Shown here: piece by piece, positions 7,889 through 54,798 of the stretch
Layout: the number at the start of each line of letters is the position of its first letter
Numbering within the stretch: position 1 is the stretch's first letter
Source: a virus
Virus record (IMG/VR): IMGVR_UViG_3300008262_000014
Location: 32,001 to 96,000 of that record
DNA: 64,000 bases
Direction: 5' to 3' (one strand)
Notes under the pieces: model-generated
Seen by the model: only the letters and a program-made list of their open reading frames with translations
Databases searched by the model: none
Told to the model about the DNA's origin: nothing
Translations under genes and position numbers: made by a program

Positions 7889-8959
7889 TTAATTTATATT
7901 AAATCCTATTTTATTTTCTTTTTGTGTTTTATGAACTTCTATGTCAATATTATATATATCAGCTAAAATCATTGGTTGATTAACAACATGATTTTTATTC
8001 AATGATTTTAATAATTTATTAGTTTCATCTACAGACAAAGGTGAAAATTTGTGTTCAGCAATTAATCTTCCCTTTCTAAGTAAAGCGTTATCAATTTTTT
8101 CTCTTTTCATATTAAATGTCGCTATTACTTGTATATTTAAACAATCTCCAAGTATTCCATCTGTTAAATTTAAAATATTAGATACACCTGCCGGTGATCC
8201 GTTACCTTCTCTATCTGATATAACTCGTTCAGCATCTTCAATTATTAGTACAGAATTTCTATGTTCCATCAAAAATGGGATAATTGATGGTTCCGATATT
8301 GCCTCCGCCATTGATGGTGGAATAAATAAAATTTCTTTTGAATCAATTAATTTGGTAAGGTATTTTAGATATGATGTTTTACCGGTACCGGGATCACCGT
8401 GTAATAAAATAATACCCTTATCGTTGTCGTTGTTTAGTCTATTGATAATTGTCTCATGTATTTTAACAAAAGATTTCCCATAATTCAATTCTAAATCAAT
8501 TTCAGGTATAGTTAAATCATATTCTTCTGTATCTAAATGACCCATTTCACTTTTAACTAAACTAATATTAAGTTTCTTTTTAGATTTTTCATATTTTTTT
8601 AATTTTTCAAAATCTACTTGTTCAGTTATTTCGCCATTTTTTATATCATAAAAAATTTCAAATTGGTAATATCCATCTAATTTACCTTCATTTATCATTT
8701 TTGCAATTATATTATTCTTCTTATTGATGAATATAAACTGTATACTTTGTCTATTAGATTTCCCAATTGAGTTATTTTTATACTCGAGAACAAATCCATT
8801 TGTGACTAAAAAGGTAGATAACGTAATGTCATAAAAAATAGAGTAATTGGAATGCTTAGAAGGAATTGAATCAAATTGATTTATAAATAATTGTTCAAGA
8901 GGAAAATCGTTTCCGTATACAGTGTCGTATAAAGGATAATTTATTGGTAATTTAGGCAT
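7889..8959 (-). CDS. AAA+ ATPase (BCS1-like)
   Basis: Walker A GDPGTGKT, Walker B IIEDAE, LNLTDG, second region of homology IDNALLRKGRL, C-terminal KIGF. Confidence 0.88.
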   Translation of the reverse strand: MPKLPINYPLYDTVYGNDFPLEQLFINQFDSIPSKHSNYSIFYDITLSTFLVTNGFVLEYKNNSIGKSNRQSIQFIFINKKNNIIAKMINEGKLDGYYQFEIFYDIKNGEITEQVDFEKLKKYEKSKKKLNISLVKSEMGHLDTEEYDLTIPEIDLELNYGKSFVKIHETIINRLNNDNDKGIILLHGDPGTGKTSYLKYLTKLIDSKEILFIPPSMAEAISEPSIIPFLMEHRNSVLIIEDAERVISDREGNGSPAGVSNILNLTDGILGDCLNIQVIATFNMKREKIDNALLRKGRLIAEHKFSPLSVDETNKLLKSLNKNHVVNQPMILADIYNIDIEVHKTQKENKIGFNIN

Positions 8960-49884: not shown

Positions 49885-51717
49885 TTAAAATGTAGTCGAT
49901 CCTAATGTTTTAACCCTAACTTTTATATCTTTATTTGGGAATCTTATTTGAAATATTTGATTAGACTTCATAAAAATAGTCATATCAGATTGTAAAACTT
50001 CTTTTGTTATTGGGTCTTTATATTGTTGTGATACTTCAGATAATGAATATTCTCCACCTGTTTTTACAAAAACTCTAATATCAACAACATTTATAACACC
50101 ATTTTCATCACCAATTTCTTTAAATAAATTACCCAAAAATAAAGGATCTCCCATTTTTCTTTTATCTATTGAGAAATAGGATATTGTTTTAGTGATTGTA
50201 TTTTTTATAACATCAGTGCTATTTACATTTTTATCCAAGATCAAATCAATTTCAAGAGAAAAATCAATTACTTGACCACTAACAATATCAATAAAATCAT
50301 TTATCATCCTGAATTCCGATAAATAATTTATGATATTATTTTTTAATGTGTTAGAAACTGTTTCAGTTAAATTACCTTTATCATCATATGATAATAATTT
50401 AATTCTAACTTTATTATCTTCTTCCATTACATTAACCTTTGCGGGTGCTCCGTATGTTGATGGCATAGTTTCTATCAAAACTTTATAATCATTTAAAGTA
50501 ACTGCTCTATTTTGTGCCGCGAAATTATATGCAACTAAATTTCTTATTTCTTCTATTGTCGGTTGATCGGCACCTCCAATAGCGGGTGTTACATTATTAA
50601 CACTCAATGAATTAACTACTTGTGTATTTATACTACTATTAGGACCATTAACATTAAATTCAATACTATCAACACTTGTTATAACATTAACACCTAAATT
50701 ACTACTTTTACCACCACCAATTCTATATTTTATAAAAAGAGTACTATCTATTTTTGGTAATGCACCTAATGATAAATTATTTAAATAAACACCAAGATTA
50801 ACTTTCATGTTATTTGTCATGAAATTATCTAAATTATCTAAAGGATCGACATTGCCTGATCCAAATGTTATTGAAAAATAATTTTCTGGAGTATATTCTG
50901 TTACAAATTTATTTTTAACATCGATATATTTTCCAGATTTAAAATTTGGTCTATCTGATATTCCTGTCGGGTCTGGAACAAATACTTTATCTTGTATCAT
51001 TGTTTTTACTTCATACCATCTATTTTCTGATGTATTAAATTCTGCAGAATTTGGATTTGCGGTAAAATTTGTTCCTTCTTTATGTATGATTGATGTCACA
51101 CCTAAAACATTTTGTTCAGGTAAAAAAAGTTTTAAAAATGGTTTTTGATCTAATTGTGTAATAACTCTTCTAAAAATTCTAGTAACTCCATTAACTACAG
51201 GTTCTCTTTTCGTTATAGTATATGATACTAATTGATTATTACCATCAAAATTTGGAATTTTCAATCTATTTGGTTCTCCTCTATTATTAAATGGATTAGC
51301 AAAATCAATATCATCAGTAGTTTCAAAAATTTGTCCTCCTCCCGAAACTTGTGCTCCCGCTTTTAAAATTCCTTCATATCTATCATCATCTTTATCACCT
51401 TTAACAGGAACAACTATTGAAAAATCACACAATGCAACTGATGGTCTGTTTCCCGGTATTCTTATCCCATATGTTTTTGCGATGAAAAATAATGATTGTC
51501 TTTGTTGTGCAAAGTCTAACATTGTCTCCTGCCAAACTCTATCAATATGGTAATGTAAATTATCCGCAACCGCGGCATTTATATCTAATAAAACCGAAAA
51601 AATAGATGCATCATTTGTGTTCTTAATTAAATCGGGATAATAATTTCTAGTTAAATTAACTAATTCCTGTCTTAATCCAACAAAATCCCTTGTTGCGTAT
51701 GATATTTTTTTAGCCAT
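49885..51717 (-). CDS. Baseplate wedge subunit (T4 gp6-like)
   Basis: RDFVGLRQEL, ITFGSG, YRIGGG..NLG, GGAD..EEIR..AQNRAVTLNDY motifs. Confidence 0.85.
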   Translation of the reverse strand: MAKKISYATRDFVGLRQELVNLTRNYYPDLIKNTNDASIFSVLLDINAAVADNLHYHIDRVWQETMLDFAQQRQSLFFIAKTYGIRIPGNRPSVALCDFSIVVPVKGDKDDDRYEGILKAGAQVSGGGQIFETTDDIDFANPFNNRGEPNRLKIPNFDGNNQLVSYTITKREPVVNGVTRIFRRVITQLDQKPFLKLFLPEQNVLGVTSIIHKEGTNFTANPNSAEFNTSENRWYEVKTMIQDKVFVPDPTGISDRPNFKSGKYIDVKNKFVTEYTPENYFSITFGSGNVDPLDNLDNFMTNNMKVNLGVYLNNLSLGALPKIDSTLFIKYRIGGGKSSNLGVNVITSVDSIEFNVNGPNSSINTQVVNSLSVNNVTPAIGGADQPTIEEIRNLVAYNFAAQNRAVTLNDYKVLIETMPSTYGAPAKVNVMEEDNKVRIKLLSYDDKGNLTETVSNTLKNNIINYLSEFRMINDFIDIVSGQVIDFSLEIDLILDKNVNSTDVIKNTITKTISYFSIDKRKMGDPLFLGNLFKEIGDENGVINVVDIRVFVKTGGEYSLSEVSQQYKDPITKEVLQSDMTIFMKSNQIFQIRFPNKDIKVRVKTLGSTTF

Positions 51718-51718
51718 A

Positions 51719-52171
51719 TTATATATTAATAATTATAAAATCAGATGATGAAAATGTTCCATTATTTACAGTGTAATCTATTTTAACTTTTGCGGTATAT
51801 GGTTTAGTTGAAAAATCTGAAACTCTAAAAAGTCTATTATCCTCATCTTCCATAGAACCAACTAATCTATCGGGATCATCTTCAGCCGATGTAATACTAA
51901 TAGAATTAATATCTAAATTTGGTATATATTTTCTAACACTTTCTCTTATTTCATCTTCAATAAGATTATATGATACGACATCATTTTGTTCAAAAATATA
52001 CTCATATATTCTTGTTCCAAAATCAGGTAGATAATATCTACTACCTTTTCTTGTTAGTAAAAGATGTAATAAGTTTGCTCTAACTTCTCTTTCAGGAGTT
52101 TCAGTCATTCTTAAAAAGTCACCTTTTCTACTATCTCTAAATGGATAATCTATACCATATGTTACTGCCAT
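51719..52171 (-). CDS. Baseplate wedge protein (T4 gp25/GPW-like)
   Basis: NLLHLLLTRKGSRYYLPDFGTRIYEYIFE motif. Confidence 0.9.
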   Translation of the reverse strand: MAVTYGIDYPFRDSRKGDFLRMTETPEREVRANLLHLLLTRKGSRYYLPDFGTRIYEYIFEQNDVVSYNLIEDEIRESVRKYIPNLDINSISITSAEDDPDRLVGSMEDEDNRLFRVSDFSTKPYTAKVKIDYTVNNGTFSSSDFIIINI

Positions 52172-52210
52172 GATAATAAATATAATGATATTCGAAATCT
52201 TTTTAAATGA

Positions 52211-52236
52211 AAAATCCAGACATATGTCTGGATTTT
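52211..52236. terminator. Perfect 26 bp palindrome, probable terminator of the replication/RNR transcript
   Basis: aaaatccagacatatgtctggatttt is its own reverse complement; T-run on the minus strand. Confidence 0.65.
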
Positions 52237-52250
52237 GTCCATGTTAATTA

Positions 52251-52340
52251 TGGTGGTTTGGTTTTCACCCCCTGTATAACCAATCCTTAGATGCTCAAGG
52301 TACGCCTTGACGACAGACTAATCTTTGAGGGAGTCATCCA
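52251..52340 (-). ncRNA. Candidate pseudoknotted structured RNA
   Basis: GC-rich island; stems GGAUG/CAUCU, UCAAGG-CGUA-CCUUGA, UUGGUU/AACCAA and 7 bp ACUCCCU/AGGGGGU cross-pairing. Confidence 0.55.
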
Positions 52341-52515
52341 ATCCTTTTTTTAAAGTGGTATTATTTTTTTCTCCTTTAGGTTCATATGGACAATGTCTAC
52401 ATCCATTACCTGATGATCCACAACAATACCCTCTTTCTATGTGATATCTTTCAGTGAAGATAACTTTATTACCATCAAGATAATAATGTGTTCCTTCAAT
52501 AAATTCATTACTCAT
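52318..52515 (-). CDS. DUF5522-like small Cys-rich protein
   Basis: YYLDGNKVIFTERYHIERGYCCGSSGNGCRHCPY signature. Confidence 0.75.
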   Translation of the reverse strand: MSNEFIEGTHYYLDGNKVIFTERYHIERGYCCGSSGNGCRHCPYEPKGEKNNTTLKKGLDDSLKD

Positions 52516-52524
52516 TTTATTGAT

Positions 52525-54798
52525 TTAGATACTGGTTATTTCACAAGATCCACCACTACAGGCCATACTAGCATAATCACTAATATCTTTATATTGTGGT
52601 TTGTCTAATATTTGACCAAAATCAACTTCTTTAAATTGACGAGTAACTGTTTCCCATTTATGGAAAAGATGAACATCTTTCAAACAATAAACCATCTTCT
52701 TAAGATCACCTTTGAAGTAATTCTTAGCAAATTTTTTGGCTCTTGTTATCCAATAATTTTTTAAAAGAACTTGTTCTCTTGTTCCAGTCACAGGAAGTGG
52801 TGAATCTGTTTGTGTACTAATTAAAGTATCACAAGCCATCCATAAATTATTTTCAAAATAGTGAAGACCGTCGATAACCAAACCAGATGCTAAAATAGAT
52901 CCTTTACCATATTCTTCGACTATTTCATTTAGGTTTAATACAGATGTAAATGGTGCTTGATTAAAATCTTTGTCACCATAATCTGACATGAAACTTACTG
53001 CAGTGAAATAATCTCTTTCATTCCAAATATATTCAACAATAGCATCTTTATCGTCAATGATAACAGTACAACTTGTATTATGATTAACGGGGCTATATGT
53101 ACATAATTCAGGATTGGTCCCTTCATTAACCCAATTTTGTTGTACCAATTTGATTAATTCAAGATGTTTAATACCTTTCATATCTTTCTTGAATAAACCT
53201 TGTTTTGGATTTTCTACAGGTACAAATACAACATAATCACTCTTAGTTGATGACCATACACTTTCTTCAAGTAAGAAAGACATATTATCTTGTAACCATT
53301 TAGCAGTATTACTTTCTTTGTTCAATTGCATAATTCTGAAATATTTCTCAGAATGTTCTGGATGAATACCGCTAGCCGTTCCTAATACAACTGAAGCGTT
53401 GCCCGATGGTTTAACACAAGTAGTTCTTGCCGCTTGATTAATTTCAATAATCTGAGCAACTTCTTTATTTGTTCTCTTAACCACCTCAGCACCTTCTTTA
53501 AGTAATTCAGCATTAAATAATTTAGGGTTGTTCATCCAACCTGTTATACTAACACCTAATAATGCCTCTCTTTCAAATATTTTTCTACTAGTTTCACCTA
53601 AATAAGGGAAATTAGTATAACCCGCTTGTAAAGTACCTAATGTTGAAGCATCTTTACATGCTTTAAAGAATTTTTCTTTTGTTGTACATTTTTCAGCATT
53701 AATTTCTGTTAAATTACAACCTTGAATTCCAAATTTATCATTATTAGTTTTAGTGAATTCCTCAATATCATCATAATGAATTTTTGAAAAATCAACATTC
53801 ATTAATACAGGTATCTTTAAAATCTCAAAACATGGGTTGAACATATCAAACCAACTATTAGCAAAAACGAATCCAATATCATTTGCACCATCGTTTAATT
53901 TAACCAAGTATTCAAATTGTTCTCTTTTAACTTCACTTCTCAATAATAACACTGAATTATTACTTCTACCTCTTTGTGGGTTTTCAACTCTCCAATTACC
54001 TGTTTTTGCGTGAATCATTTCATCGTCGTTTGGATCTACGATCATATTCAAAGCTGAACGACGAACACCTCCAGATAACACAGCGTCTGCCGAATGACAA
54101 ATAATATCAAAAGCTAATATAGGTCTAATTTCATTACCTTCTTTTTCAATCCATCTTTCAATTAATTGTTCTATTTTTTCCAAAGACTGTTTTAAACCTT
54201 CGGGACCAGGTGCTTTAAATCCACCACTAATAAAAGAACCTTTCTCTCTAATTTGAGAATAATCAAATTTAACTTCATAACCTGCGAACTCAGGAAAAGG
54301 TTGTCTGTCCACAAAGTAAGAAGACATTAACACCCCTAAAGCATCTGACCATCCTTCGATACTATCGTTGATAACGAATGTTTTAGTACCGTTTAATCTT
54401 TTCTGAATTCTACTCAAATTCTTAACAAATGGTTTTAATAATCCACCACCAAATCCACATCCGGATAAAGCTAAGTAAAAAATTTCTTGGAAGACTCTGT
54501 TTCTGGCAATGTGACCTGACGTACAATTAAACATTCTTGTGTTATGTTTCATTATTTGTTCGTGACGATACTGTAAGTTTCTTTGTGAAGCTAAAACCAA
54601 TTGGTCTTTCATACTTTCAAGTGCCGAATTGAAATATGGTAATAACTCATCTGTATATTTTTTATACTTTTTTCTGTGTCCATCCATGATGTTATCACAT
54701 GCGTCTTCCCATGTTTCGTACCTTCCTTTTTCTTCTAACCATTTAAAATAATCTGAATGTAACTTTAAGTCACTCAGAAATTTTTTACCTTTCTGCAT
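52525..54798 (-). CDS. nrdJ: Class II (adenosylcobalamin-dependent) ribonucleotide reductase, monomeric RTPR type
   Basis: MFNC, GCGFG, GGVRRSA, NPCFEI thiyl Cys, GCNLTEIN, LLGVSITG, TCVKPSG, QAPF, C-terminal ACSGGSCEI; no beta-subunit gene nearby. Confidence 0.85.
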   Translation of the reverse strand: MQKGKKFLSDLKLHSDYFKWLEEKGRYETWEDACDNIMDGHRKKYKKYTDELLPYFNSALESMKDQLVLASQRNLQYRHEQIMKHNTRMFNCTSGHIARNRVFQEIFYLALSGCGFGGGLLKPFVKNLSRIQKRLNGTKTFVINDSIEGWSDALGVLMSSYFVDRQPFPEFAGYEVKFDYSQIREKGSFISGGFKAPGPEGLKQSLEKIEQLIERWIEKEGNEIRPILAFDIICHSADAVLSGGVRRSALNMIVDPNDDEMIHAKTGNWRVENPQRGRSNNSVLLLRSEVKREQFEYLVKLNDGANDIGFVFANSWFDMFNPCFEILKIPVLMNVDFSKIHYDDIEEFTKTNNDKFGIQGCNLTEINAEKCTTKEKFFKACKDASTLGTLQAGYTNFPYLGETSRKIFEREALLGVSITGWMNNPKLFNAELLKEGAEVVKRTNKEVAQIIEINQAARTTCVKPSGNASVVLGTASGIHPEHSEKYFRIMQLNKESNTAKWLQDNMSFLLEESVWSSTKSDYVVFVPVENPKQGLFKKDMKGIKHLELIKLVQQNWVNEGTNPELCTYSPVNHNTSCTVIIDDKDAIVEYIWNERDYFTAVSFMSDYGDKDFNQAPFTSVLNLNEIVEEYGKGSILASGLVIDGLHYFENNLWMACDTLISTQTDSPLPVTGTREQVLLKNYWITRAKKFAKNYFKGDLKKMVYCLKDVHLFHKWETVTRQFKEVDFGQILDKPQYKDISDYASMACSGGSCEITSI

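What the first reader, a model, noticed from the sequence alone, without database searches (positions are those of the whole stretch)
52251..52340. Candidate novel pseudoknotted RNA between the nrdJ/DUF5522 operon and the baseplate genes
Seen: a GC-rich island in an AT-rich genome, reading on the minus strand GGAUG-ACUCCCU-CAAAGAUUAGUCUGUCG-UCAAGGCGUACCUUGA-G-CAUCU-AAGGA-UUGGUU-AUAC-AGGGGGU-GAA-AACCAA. This gives a closing stem GGAUG/CAUCU enclosing a 6 bp tetraloop hairpin, plus a second hairpin UUGGUU/AACCAA whose loop AGGGGGU can form 7 contiguous pairs with ACUCCCU inside the first domain. A perfect-palindrome terminator follows about 15 nt later. I do not recognise it as a cobalamin riboswitch, HDV, twister, pistol or hammerhead ribozyme. 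Inference: an undescribed phage ribozyme, riboswitch-like element or sRNA at the 3' end of the nucleotide-synthesis transcript.
Basis: partly seen in the sequence, partly recalled or inferred. Interest (0 to 1): 0.85.

Follow-up and report, generated by a model that had tools for sequence, protein, structure and literature searches.

The report
Portable pseudoknot RNA of lake phages
The flagged stretch is a real, conserved, knotted RNA fold that many uncultured phages carry once per genome at varying places (after a reductase gene, in front of or inside their ribosome-rescue RNA, among tRNA genes); it fits no catalogued RNA family and its job is unknown.

Summary
On the minus strand at 52339-52258 lie P1 (GGAUG/CAUCU), a 6-bp tetraloop hairpin (P2), a hairpin P3 (UUGGUU/AACCAA), and a 7-bp pseudoknot (ACUCCCU/AGGGGGU) between the P1-P2 junction and the P3 loop. 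A terminator hairpin follows 21 nt later.

Thermodynamics alone are weak (z -2.1). Comparative data are strong. On 64 distinct relatives, P1 is 99% paired, the pseudoknot 98% and P2 96%. 18 of 27 pairs show double changes, and 0 of 500 shuffles reach this. Rfam 15 gives no match.

The family is not tied to nrdJ or gp25. The same core occurs in five settings:
- directly after RNR genes, before a terminator (this window);
- at the 5' end of phage pre-tmRNA;
- inside tRNA arrays;
- between protein genes, closed by a long covarying stem;
- built into three phage tmRNAs at the pseudoknot-2 position.

Four records each show a single copy.

Best reading: a portable, self-folding RNA domain that works as an RNA in its own right, probably in the translation or ribosome-rescue sphere, and not a cis switch. 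Ribozyme, stabiliser and antiterminator readings remain open.

First readers of this scan had already noted the tmRNA-leader form on other DNA.

The parts
52335..52339 (-). P1, 5' strand (GGAUG)
   Evidence: Pairs with 52289-52293. Across 64 relatives it is 99.1% paired. Position 4 switches U-A (40) / A-U (24), and position 3 is G-U/A-U/G-C.
52328..52334 (-). Pseudoknot, 5' strand (ACUCCCU)
   Evidence: Pairs with 52267-52273. It is 98.4% paired in 64 relatives, although this helix was not in the model that built the alignment. Compensated variants ACUUCC/GGAAGU (L009) and ACCUUC/GGAGGU (L048) occur.
52311..52327 (-). Junction J (CAAAG...CUGUCG). It contains the TAG stop of the DUF5522 ORF at 52318-52320.
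   Evidence: The first positions Y-A-A-W are nearly invariant (A in 63 and 61 of 64). The rest varies in length; other subtypes have UAAUAG.
52295..52310 (-). P2 hairpin (UCAAGG-CGUA-CCUUGA)
   Evidence: 95.5% paired, and 5 of 6 pairs have changes on both sides. It is replaced by a longer domain in L009/L048 and is degenerate in L025/L040.
52289..52294 (-). One-nucleotide junction (G) and P1 3' strand (CAUCU)
   Evidence: The junction is 1 nt in 63 of 64 sequences (G 54, A 7, U 2). Pairing as for P1.
52258..52283 (-). P3 hairpin (UUGGUU ... AACCAA). Its loop reads AUAC-AGGGGGU-GAA and holds the pseudoknot 3' strand (52267-52273).
   Evidence: All 9 P3 pairs have changes on both sides. AUA and G-GAA are invariant in the 20 sequences collected through the gp25 protein, without any RNA pattern. 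In other members P3 is replaced by a closing stem P0 plus a small hairpin.
52210..52236 (-). Intrinsic-terminator-like palindromic hairpin with a U-run
   Evidence: An 11-bp hairpin followed by U5 in the fold. The simple scan did not list it. Related loci have a terminator of different sequence at the same place, with or without the element.
52318..52515 (-). 65-aa DUF5522 ORF whose tail overlaps the element
   Evidence: Pfam PF17653, E 1.6e-14, residues 4-47. The overlapping tail lies outside the domain.
52525..54798 (-). 757-aa class II (RTPR-type) ribonucleotide reductase relative
   Evidence: NCBIfam TIGR02505, E 1.4e-36, 125.9 bits, below the 340-bit cut-off. No Pfam hit at 1e-3.
51719..52171 (-). 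gp25-like baseplate wedge gene, downstream of the terminator
   Evidence: Pfam PF04965, E 1.1e-12.

Best explanation
The stretch is one copy of a conserved phage RNA family of about 65-95 nt.

The fold. P1 (5 bp) runs straight into a 7-bp pseudoknot helix. A variable hairpin P2 hangs between the pseudoknot 5' strand and the P1 3' strand. A fourth helix flanks the pseudoknot 3' strand. This fourth helix is either a local hairpin (P3, as in this window) or a long stem that closes the whole domain (P0).

The role. It is a portable, self-contained RNA domain. It is not a cis-regulator of nrdJ, DUF5522 or gp25. Phages place a single copy wherever it will be transcribed as part of an abundant or stable RNA:
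- in the 3' untranslated end of the reductase operon just before its terminator (here);
- at the very 5' end of the pre-tmRNA;
- between tRNA genes;
- between protein genes, closed by its own stem;
- as the pseudoknot-2 domain of the tmRNA itself.

In this window the likely product is the 3'-terminal piece of the reductase mRNA (domain plus terminator hairpin), that is, a 3'-UTR-borne small RNA.

Shown: the fold, its conservation, its contexts, and a single copy in each of the four records where the model was run and matched.

Inferred: that it acts as a folded RNA in trans through its conserved unpaired nucleotides (Y-A-A after the pseudoknot 5' strand, AUA before and GAA after the 3' strand). 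Also inferred: that its partner belongs to translation or ribosome rescue, because of its repeated linkage with tmRNA and tRNA genes. The partner is unknown.
For: Fold:
- Searches give the pair counts and controls.
- P0 is 7-13 contiguous pairs in 10 of 10 stand-alone members examined, with at least four unrelated sequences. Further different P0 sequences appear.

Contexts:
- 37 of 80 gp25-neighbour loci carry the element between the stop codon of an RNR gene or DUF5522 and a terminator. The others keep the terminator without it.
- Rfam tmRNA starts 27-30 nt after the core in L086, L122, L128 and L131.
- Of 58 metagenome loci parsed, out of 61 found: 23 have a tmRNA directly downstream, 8 an RNR gene upstream, 7 a tRNA within 300 nt on the same strand (L261: 8 nt after one tRNA-Leu and 13 nt before the next), 1 is embedded in a tmRNA, 6 are cut and 13 are other.
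- Three different tmRNAs (L092, L162, L233) align end to end with the domain at the same internal place, after the tag frame and its hairpin.

Copy number and distribution:
- One match per record in G000, G001, G002 (97% complete) and G003.
- It is essentially phage-borne. A canonical pattern hit 3 stretches in 185,579 species genomes. Two of these are family members on MAG contigs and one is a chance match.

Not protein-coding: 23 of 64 members have stops in all three frames, the open frames differ among the rest, and lengths differ by non-multiples of 3.
Against: - There are no expression data. The one run search and read laying gave a single relative's contig over gp25 only.
- No partner is identified.
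- In this window the first 20 nt are translated as the tail of DUF5522. In L184/L192/L202 the frame runs through P1-P2. Ribosomes must therefore unfold the domain on translated mRNAs.
- Close relatives lack it, so it is dispensable.
- The tmRNA link is incomplete. An Rfam-level tmRNA was found in 5 of 10 element-bearing virus records. Four of the other five are 36-63% complete, but G012 (92% complete) has none.
- Part of the apparent invariance (AUA, GUGAA, the P1 and pseudoknot 5' strands) was imposed by the search patterns. Only the 20 sequences found through gp25 are free of that bias.
- Many loci come from the same few phage lineages, so the counts are not independent.
Confidence: 0.5

Rival explanations
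1. It is a self-cleaving ribozyme of a new class, or a permuted relative of pistol. It would cut the transcript inside the domain: freeing the pre-tmRNA or tRNAs from upstream RNA, trimming the reductase mRNA from its terminator, or turning the tmRNAs that embed it into two-piece molecules.
For: - The helix layout equals that given for pistol ribozymes in PMC4604425 (passages read): three stems plus a pseudoknot between a hairpin loop and the junction joining the left shoulders of the other two stems, and a very short junction on the right shoulders. Here the order is circularly permuted.
- The stand-alone form has the strand order of an HDV-like nested double pseudoknot.
- Ribozymes beside phage tRNAs are known (theta ribozymes, PMC10879173, passages read).
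- An earlier first-reader note (e1-5997893) reports a ribozyme in the same kind of tmRNA transcript.
Against: - No Rfam ribozyme model matches, even at E up to 10 on short stretches.
- The right-shoulder junction is 1 nt in 63 of 64 sequences. In pistol it is strictly 2 nt.
- HDV-like ribozymes need a catalytic C at the first position of J4/2. Here that junction reads (U)AUA followed by C, A or U.
- P2 and junction J, which flank the would-be active site, vary widely or are degenerate.
- Cutting a tmRNA in its middle has no known use.
Confidence: 0.12
2. It is a cis-acting stabiliser or processing element. The compact knot would block exonucleases or direct an endonuclease. It would protect the 3' end of the reductase mRNA and the 5' end of the pre-tmRNA or tRNA precursors.
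For: - It sits at transcript ends: just before the terminator here, and exactly at the predicted start of the tmRNA transcript elsewhere. There the first nucleotides are locked in the long stem P0.
- Pseudoknots inside tmRNA are generally regarded as structural (recalled knowledge).
Against: - Protection would have to work in opposite directions in the two main contexts.
- The terminator hairpin already protects the 3' end, and it is kept in relatives without the domain.
- The leader is expected to be removed from tmRNA by RNase P (recalled), so it cannot protect the mature RNA.
- Copies between protein genes and between tRNAs have no obvious RNA to protect.
Confidence: 0.15
3. It is a processive antitermination element, in the manner of phage HK022 put RNA, the Bacillus EAR element, or the hairpin partner of boxA in rRNA leaders. 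It would make RNA polymerase read through the terminator that follows, into the baseplate genes here and through tmRNA or tRNA genes elsewhere.
For: - In types A and B it always lies directly upstream of a strong terminator.
- In tmRNA leaders it lies next to a GUUCUUUAAAAUAU-type box, read. That box resembles boxA. The resemblance is recalled and is also noted in earlier findings e1-5927125 and e1-5852528.
Against: - No such box lies near the window's copy.
- The box also stands before tmRNA without the domain, as in L209.
- An antiterminator inside a tmRNA, or between convergent or unrelated protein genes, makes little sense.
- Rfam has no match.
Confidence: 0.08
4. It is a riboswitch aptamer. 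A ligand would decide whether the downstream terminator forms, gating read-through from the reductase operon into gp25.
For: - The layout is aptamer-like fold followed by terminator.
- The pseudoknot 3' strand is Shine-Dalgarno-like (GGAGGUGA in L048), as in pseudoknot riboswitches that hide ribosome-binding sites.
Against: - The terminator and the spacer differ freely among near-identical domains. No conserved alternative pairing is visible.
- The same terminators occur without the domain.
- It lies after a gene rather than in a leader, and no start codon follows the SD-like strand.
- Most other copies precede non-coding RNA genes or sit inside one.
Confidence: 0.04
5. It is a functionless remnant, for example a leftover pseudoknot of a decayed tmRNA gene or a hitch-hiking insertion.
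For: - It shows a presence/absence polymorphism with sharp borders between close relatives.
- The same module is a resident domain of some tmRNAs.
Against: - Compensatory changes keep four helices intact over sequences that differ widely elsewhere.
- A single copy was found in each of the four records where the model matched, with no decay series.
Confidence: 0.03

Closest known systems
Pseudoknot 2 (PK2) domain of tmRNA (Rfam RF00023)
   Same: In L092, L162 and L233 the module occupies the PK2 place of a complete tmRNA, after the tag frame and its hairpin. The Rfam tmRNA model aligns its CUCCCU/AGGGGG helix to the outer PK2 helix. Most other B/C-type copies lie within 30 nt of a tmRNA gene.
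   Different: The window's copy is not in or near a tmRNA: none was found in the window or in the 128-kb record. The tmRNAs that lie next to stand-alone copies have a different PK2, and the model found no second hit in them. The canonical pattern was found in no bacterial tmRNA among 185,579 species genomes.
Pistol self-cleaving ribozyme (Rfam RF02679; PMC4604425, passages read)
   Same: Three stems plus a pseudoknot between a hairpin loop and the junction on the left shoulders of the other two stems. A very short right-shoulder junction. Phage association.
   Different: The strand order is circularly permuted (types A and B) or rearranged (stand-alone type). The junction is 1 nt, not 2. The loop carries extra conserved AUA and GAA. 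No match to the Rfam model. Cleavage is untested.
HDV-like / theta ribozymes beside phage tRNAs (PMC10879173, passages read)
   Same: The stand-alone form shares the nested double-pseudoknot strand order, and some copies lie beside phage tRNA genes.
   Different: There is no catalytic C at the first position of the junction before the last strand. The hairpin that takes the P3 place is 6 bp with a tetraloop, so no P1.1 can form. P1 is 5 bp. No Rfam HDV-family match.
Small stable RNAs C and D of the phage T4 tRNA cluster (recalled; not checked with any tool here)
   Same: Small non-tRNA RNAs of unknown function, encoded among phage tRNA genes and released by precursor processing. Earlier finding e1-6136338 used the same comparison for related lake-phage RNA operons.
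   Different: The T4 RNAs are longer (recalled).
Anonymous candidate structured RNAs of IMG/VR (DNAVirus_N set, PMC10690425; abstract and passages read)
   Same: That study mined intergenic regions of the same kind of collection for covarying structures. It lists 8,495 unnamed candidates, 1,241 of them with a terminator.
   Different: The main-text passages I read, retrieved with the search terms, do not describe a motif with these contexts.

Membership tests
Any Rfam 15 family (4227 models) | Covariance-model match at or near the family's gathering score | tested here: not met
   There were 0 matches at gathering score in the whole window. In E-value mode on 52100-52600, nothing lies on the element except an unstructured lncRNA alignment at E 8.5. 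The stand-alone form L086:640-760 gives only 12-20-bit chance hits. Fifteen related loci give only tmRNA and tRNA.
Pistol ribozyme | [quoted passage not shown] | tested here: met
   The same helix set and pseudoknot partners are present, supported by covariation, but only after circular permutation of the strand order.
Pistol ribozyme | [quoted passage not shown] | tested here: not met
   The junction is 1 nt in 63 of 64 sequences. There is no match to RF02679.
Pistol ribozyme | Self-cleavage | not testable with these tools
   This needs an in vitro cleavage assay.
HDV-like / theta ribozyme | Nested double pseudoknot with catalytic cytosine at the first position of J4/2 | tested here: not met
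   The strand order fits in the stand-alone form. However, the junction reads (U)AUA plus C/A/U, so the first position is never C. No HDV-family Rfam hit.
tmRNA pseudoknot domain | Lies inside a tmRNA between the tag reading frame and the 3' tRNA-like half | tested here: not met
   This is met for L092, L162 and L233. It is not met for the window's copy: no tmRNA in the window or in record G000.
Transcription-terminating riboswitch | Aptamer whose 3' part competes with the terminator stem (conserved alternative pairing), in a 5' leader | tested here: not met
   Terminator stems differ freely beside near-identical domains and persist without the domain. The position is after a gene, with part of the domain translated.
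Intrinsic terminator (the downstream palindrome only) | G+C-containing hairpin followed by a U-run | tested here: inconclusive
   The fold gives an 11-bp hairpin followed by U5. The consensus scan listed no terminator, because the A/U pairs extend the stem into the tail.
Small protein-coding gene | A reading frame kept open across relatives | tested here: not met
   23 of 64 members have stops in all three forward frames, the open frames differ among the rest, and lengths differ by 1-2 nt.

The most novel reading that the evidence does not exclude
The module is the working pseudoknot-2 domain of a phage tmRNA lineage. Other phages express it as a free small RNA from a reductase 3' UTR, a pre-tmRNA leader or a tRNA array. 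The free knot would then occupy the ribosomal or protein site that tmRNA pseudoknots normally contact, letting the phage redirect or block host ribosome rescue or translation. The family would also be a natural case of an RNA fold kept through rearranged strand order: local hairpin P3 versus end-closing stem P0. Such rearrangement is so far documented only for hammerhead ribozymes (PMC10085705, passages read).
Probability: 0.15. Interest if true: 0.85.

Novelty: new variant of a known kind. Interest (0 to 1): 0.62.

Why it matters
The finding turns a single odd GC-rich island into a family with more than 100 distinct members and a well-supported pseudoknotted fold. The set of contexts is unusual: the same small domain is used as a 3' UTR piece, as a leader, as a free-standing cassette, and as a built-in domain of tmRNA.

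That modularity is rare for natural RNAs. It gives a direct handle on two open questions: what tmRNA pseudoknots are for, and why large phages carry tmRNA and tRNA islands.

It also offers a compact natural fold whose fourth helix is connected in two different ways. This is of interest for RNA structure and for ribozyme searches.

If the function turns out to be mere structural padding, the value is modest: a new Rfam-type family for annotating phage genomes.

Tried and rejected
- **tRNA or tmRNA identity of the window's element.** ARAGORN found nothing in the window. Rfam tmRNA and tRNA models found nothing in the 128-kb record.

- **Known phage records.** blastn of 51700-52900 against 50,697 phage records gave no match. 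The stand-alone form plus tmRNA matched only the tmRNA T-arm of two uncultured phages. The nearest cultured relative by the baseplate wedge protein is Flavobacterium phage vB_FspM_immuto, at 27% identity. Neither its genome nor a 484-kb uncultured phage record matches the model. That call's own caveat applies: an empty answer shows little.

- **Expression.** The single run search found one RNA run, with 5% of the words. Laying four runs gave one 250-nt contig of a relative over gp25 and nothing over the element. This is no evidence either way.

- **Mimicry of ribosomal RNA.** Local alignment of five members against E. coli 16S rRNA scored no better than shuffles (101-223 of 300 shuffles at least as high). 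Rejected as unsupported.

- **Host from promoters.** The Bacteroidota-type -33/-7 promoter (TTTG ... TAnnTTTG, a recalled consensus) stands right before the stand-alone copies and before the tmRNAs of related jumbo phages. It is not enriched in this window (9 found, 6.8 expected). The host of this phage therefore stays uncertain.

- **The box before gp25.** The conserved box TATATTTAT before gp25 is not enriched in the window either (6 found, 6.8 expected).

- **Element-less relatives.** Five records lacking the element at the gp25 locus showed neither the element elsewhere nor a tmRNA. They are 10-43% complete, so this is uninformative.

- **Stop-codon read-through or frameshift signal.** The distance from stop codon to P1 varies from 5 to 10 nt. 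In DUF5522 contexts the stop lies inside or after the fold. Rejected.

- **L088.** Its copy sits in a roughly 700-nt gene-free stretch that gave no Rfam hit even at E up to 1. Left unexplained.

- **Literature.** Searches returned no paper describing this motif among the listings. 51 returned nothing. For the theta-ribozyme, pistol, permutation and IMG/VR-catalogue papers I read passages only. The supplements of PMC10690425, which may hold this motif as an unnamed entry, are closed.
Full report
**What is in the window.**

- P1: GGAUG (52339-52335) with CAUCU (52293-52289).
- P2: a 6-bp hairpin with a CGUA loop (52310-52295).
- P3: UUGGUU (52283-52278) with AACCAA (52263-52258).
- A pseudoknot: the P3 loop reads AUAC-AGGGGGU-GAA, and its G-run can pair over 7 positions with ACUCCCU (52334-52328), which follows P1 without a gap.

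A palindromic hairpin with a U-run lies at 52236-52210. The gp25-like gene starts at 52171. GC rises to 0.43-0.44 here, against 0.20-0.35 in most neighbouring 80-nt windows.

- The 65-aa DUF5522 ORF (PF17653, E 1.6e-14) ends with TAG at 52320-52318. Its stop therefore lies inside the element.
- The gap to the terminator is 21 nt.

The 757-aa protein upstream is a distant class II (RTPR-type) ribonucleotide reductase: TIGR02505, E 1.4e-36, below the family cut-off.

**Is it more than chance?**

Alone, barely. The 90-nt fold has -27.0 kcal/mol against -20.6 +/- 3.0 for shuffles, and 6 of 200 shuffles do as well. RNAfold also prefers a nested hairpin.

The comparative evidence is decisive.
- The gp25 protein has 470 relatives in viral contigs. 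Of the 80 loci kept, 37 carry the element at the same place.
- The 20 distinct sequences (alignment A1) give 92.1% paired cells. 12 of 27 pairs have changes on both sides, and 0 of 500 shuffles reach this.
- A covariance model built from them without the pseudoknot (R1) matched 99 of 100 sources searched.
- On 64 distinct matches (alignment A2), P1 is 99.1% paired, P2 95.5%, P3 83.1% and the unmodelled pseudoknot 98.4%. 18 of 27 pairs changed on both sides. 0 of 500 shuffles reach the observed values, and slid controls give 35-57%.
- Examples: P1 position 4 is U-A in 40 sequences and A-U in 24. The pseudoknot end is A-U, G-U or G-C. L009 and L048 carry ACUUCC/GGAAGU and ACCUUC/GGAGGU.
- The inner helix of the nested MFE alternative is only 51.8% paired. 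The pseudoknotted model is therefore the conserved one.
- No reading frame is conserved.

Caveats:
- A2 was fitted to the model for P1, P2 and P3.
- Many sequences are close relatives.
- The patterns I scanned with fix several 'invariant' letters.
- In the pattern-free set of 20, AUA before and G-GAA after the pseudoknot 3' strand are still invariant.

**Three connectivities of one core.**

The collected members (75 distinct in viral contigs; 41 further distinct cores in metagenomes) share four features:
- P1 and the pseudoknot;
- a Y-A-A-W start of the junction;
- P2 with a 4-nt loop;
- a 1-nt junction back to P1 (63 of 64).

They differ in the fourth helix.
- In types A (this window) and B, the pseudoknot 3' strand sits in the loop of hairpin P3.
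- In the stand-alone type C, a small hairpin precedes (U)AUAC. The strand after GAA(A) pairs instead with the strand just 5' of P1, giving a closing stem P0.
- P0 has 7-13 contiguous pairs in 10 of 10 stand-alone members examined, with unrelated sequences. Further different versions up to 15 bp appear.
- Copies embedded in tmRNA have no P0.

The helix after GAA is thus kept, but its 5' partner sits at two different places in the chain.

**Contexts.**

- Types A and B always follow the stop codon of an RNR gene. This is class I NrdA (TIGR02506, E 7.6e-201, for L132, which also carries an intein), or the class II enzyme with DUF5522. They always precede a terminator. Related loci keep the terminator but lack the element, with sharp borders.
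- Type C stands directly behind a promoter of the recalled Bacteroidota type (TAnnTTTG) and 27-30 nt before a phage tmRNA. Rfam RF00023 hits occur in L086, L122, L128 and L131 (sequences).
- It also stands in or beside tRNA arrays (L112, L126, L137).
- In jumbo relatives that have the type A copy at the RNR locus, the tmRNA has the same promoter and a GUUCUUUAAAAUAU leader but no module (L209). In type C phages the module is therefore an insertion at the 5' end of the pre-tmRNA.
- In L092 the Rfam tmRNA match (8187-8660) contains the module at 8407-8477, after the tag frame, at the pseudoknot-2 position. L162 and L233 are two further, different tmRNAs that align end to end with it and carry the module at the same place.

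A metagenome scan for type B/C cores gave 61 stretches, of which 58 were parsed:

| Context | Loci |
|---|---|
| tmRNA directly downstream | 23 |
| RNR gene upstream | 8 |
| tRNA within 300 nt on the same strand | 7 |
| Embedded in a tmRNA | 1 |
| Cut by the contig end | 6 |
| Other (mostly P0-closed cassettes between protein genes with no shared neighbour) | 13 |

In L261 the module lies 8 nt after one tRNA-Leu and 13 nt before the next.

Further distribution data:
- In 185,579 species genomes the canonical pattern hit 3 stretches. Two are type C members on MAG contigs and one is a chance match.
- Each of four virus records shows one copy.
- A tmRNA above the Rfam cut-off was found in 5 of 10 module-bearing records. 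Four of the other five are 36-63% complete; the fifth, G012, is 92% complete.

**What it most likely is.**

The one property that fits all contexts is autonomy. The domain folds by itself, tolerates any flank, is present once per genome where this was checked, and is always placed where it will be transcribed within an abundant or stable RNA.

I therefore read it as a functional RNA domain acting on its own. In this window it would be the 3'-terminal part of the reductase mRNA together with the terminator hairpin. Its partner is probably in translation or ribosome rescue, because of the repeated tmRNA and tRNA linkage and because some tmRNAs use it as their own pseudoknot domain.

The following steps are inference:
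- release as a small RNA;
- action in trans;
- the kind of partner.

I have no expression data.

**Rivals.**

- *Self-cleaving ribozyme.* This is the most interesting rival. The helix set and pseudoknot partners equal those described for pistol (PMC4604425) after circular permutation. The stand-alone order equals an HDV-like double pseudoknot. However, the junction length, the lack of the required cytosine (PMC10879173) and the absence of any Rfam match fail the membership tests. It could only be a new class.
- *Cis stabiliser.* This would need opposite directions of protection in the two main contexts.
- *Antiterminator.* This fits the terminator and the boxA-like neighbour. It does not fit the copies inside tmRNA or the window, which has no such box.
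- *Riboswitch.* This is unlikely, because terminators vary freely and persist without the domain.

**Comparison with what is known, and novelty.**

Nothing in Rfam 15 matches. Five literature searches returned no paper describing this motif among the listings.

Within this scan, first readers had already flagged the tmRNA-leader form on other genomes (e1-6191059, e1-5927125, e1-5997893). A follow-up described a pseudoknotted leader before a phage tmRNA (e1-5852528).

New here:
- the reductase-3'-UTR form, the leader form, the tRNA-array form and a tmRNA-internal domain are one family;
- the fold has full covariation support;
- the fourth helix is connected in two ways.

I rate it a new variant of a known kind (small structured phage RNAs and tmRNA-type pseudoknots), of clear interest to RNA specialists, but with function still open.

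Noticed in passing
L207, L208, L209 (tmRNA loci of records G002, G003, G001); L210 (G004): Large T4-like lake phages encode full tmRNAs with long tags. A host-type TAnnTTTG box and a GUUCUUUAAAAUAU leader resembling boxA precede them, which hints that these RNA genes borrow rRNA-type antitermination signals.
   Followed up: partly
L088:6099-6825: A gene-free stretch of about 700 nt of moderate GC surrounds a copy of the module, which has no closing stem here. It includes a T-arm-like hairpin but gives no Rfam hit even at E up to 1. It may be a larger unknown RNA or a very divergent tmRNA.
   Followed up: partly
window 52172-52205 and the same place in L001-L080: An AT-rich block (ATTTATTACCATTTTA ... 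TTTATATTTATTG.TATG) is conserved right up to the gp25 start codon in nearly all related loci, with no Shine-Dalgarno sequence. It is possibly a phage promoter or a leaderless or SD-less start region. The core TATATTTAT is not enriched in the window.
   Followed up: partly
L132:1460-4969: The NrdA upstream of a type B copy is 1169 aa and carries an intein (TIGR01445 N-terminal splicing region, E 1.6e-07, residues 434-502).
   Followed up: no
L153, L172, L085, L101 (type B copies): The 6-8 nt just 5' of P1 repeat the first bases of the P3 5' strand (for example AAUUGU and AAUCGU in both places, changing together between L153 and L172). This could be a trace of a duplication behind the two connectivities of the fourth helix, or chance.
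   Followed up: no
L049/L067 versus L073 (upstream of gp25): Near-identical loci differ by the clean absence of the whole module between the stop codon and the terminator. A few flanking letters are kept on both sides, so the module is gained or lost as a unit.
   Followed up: partly
L009:2816-2923, L048:2806-2911: Two members replace the P2 hairpin by a domain of about 50 nt that shares GUGCCCC. They carry compensated pseudoknot sequences. This looks like a subtype with an extra arm.
   Followed up: no
L126 (tRNA array), L088: By eye, ORFs that look like homing endonucleases (GIY-YIG-like and HNH-like N-termini) lie within about 0.5-1.5 kb of stand-alone copies. They were not checked against any protein family library.
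   Followed up: no
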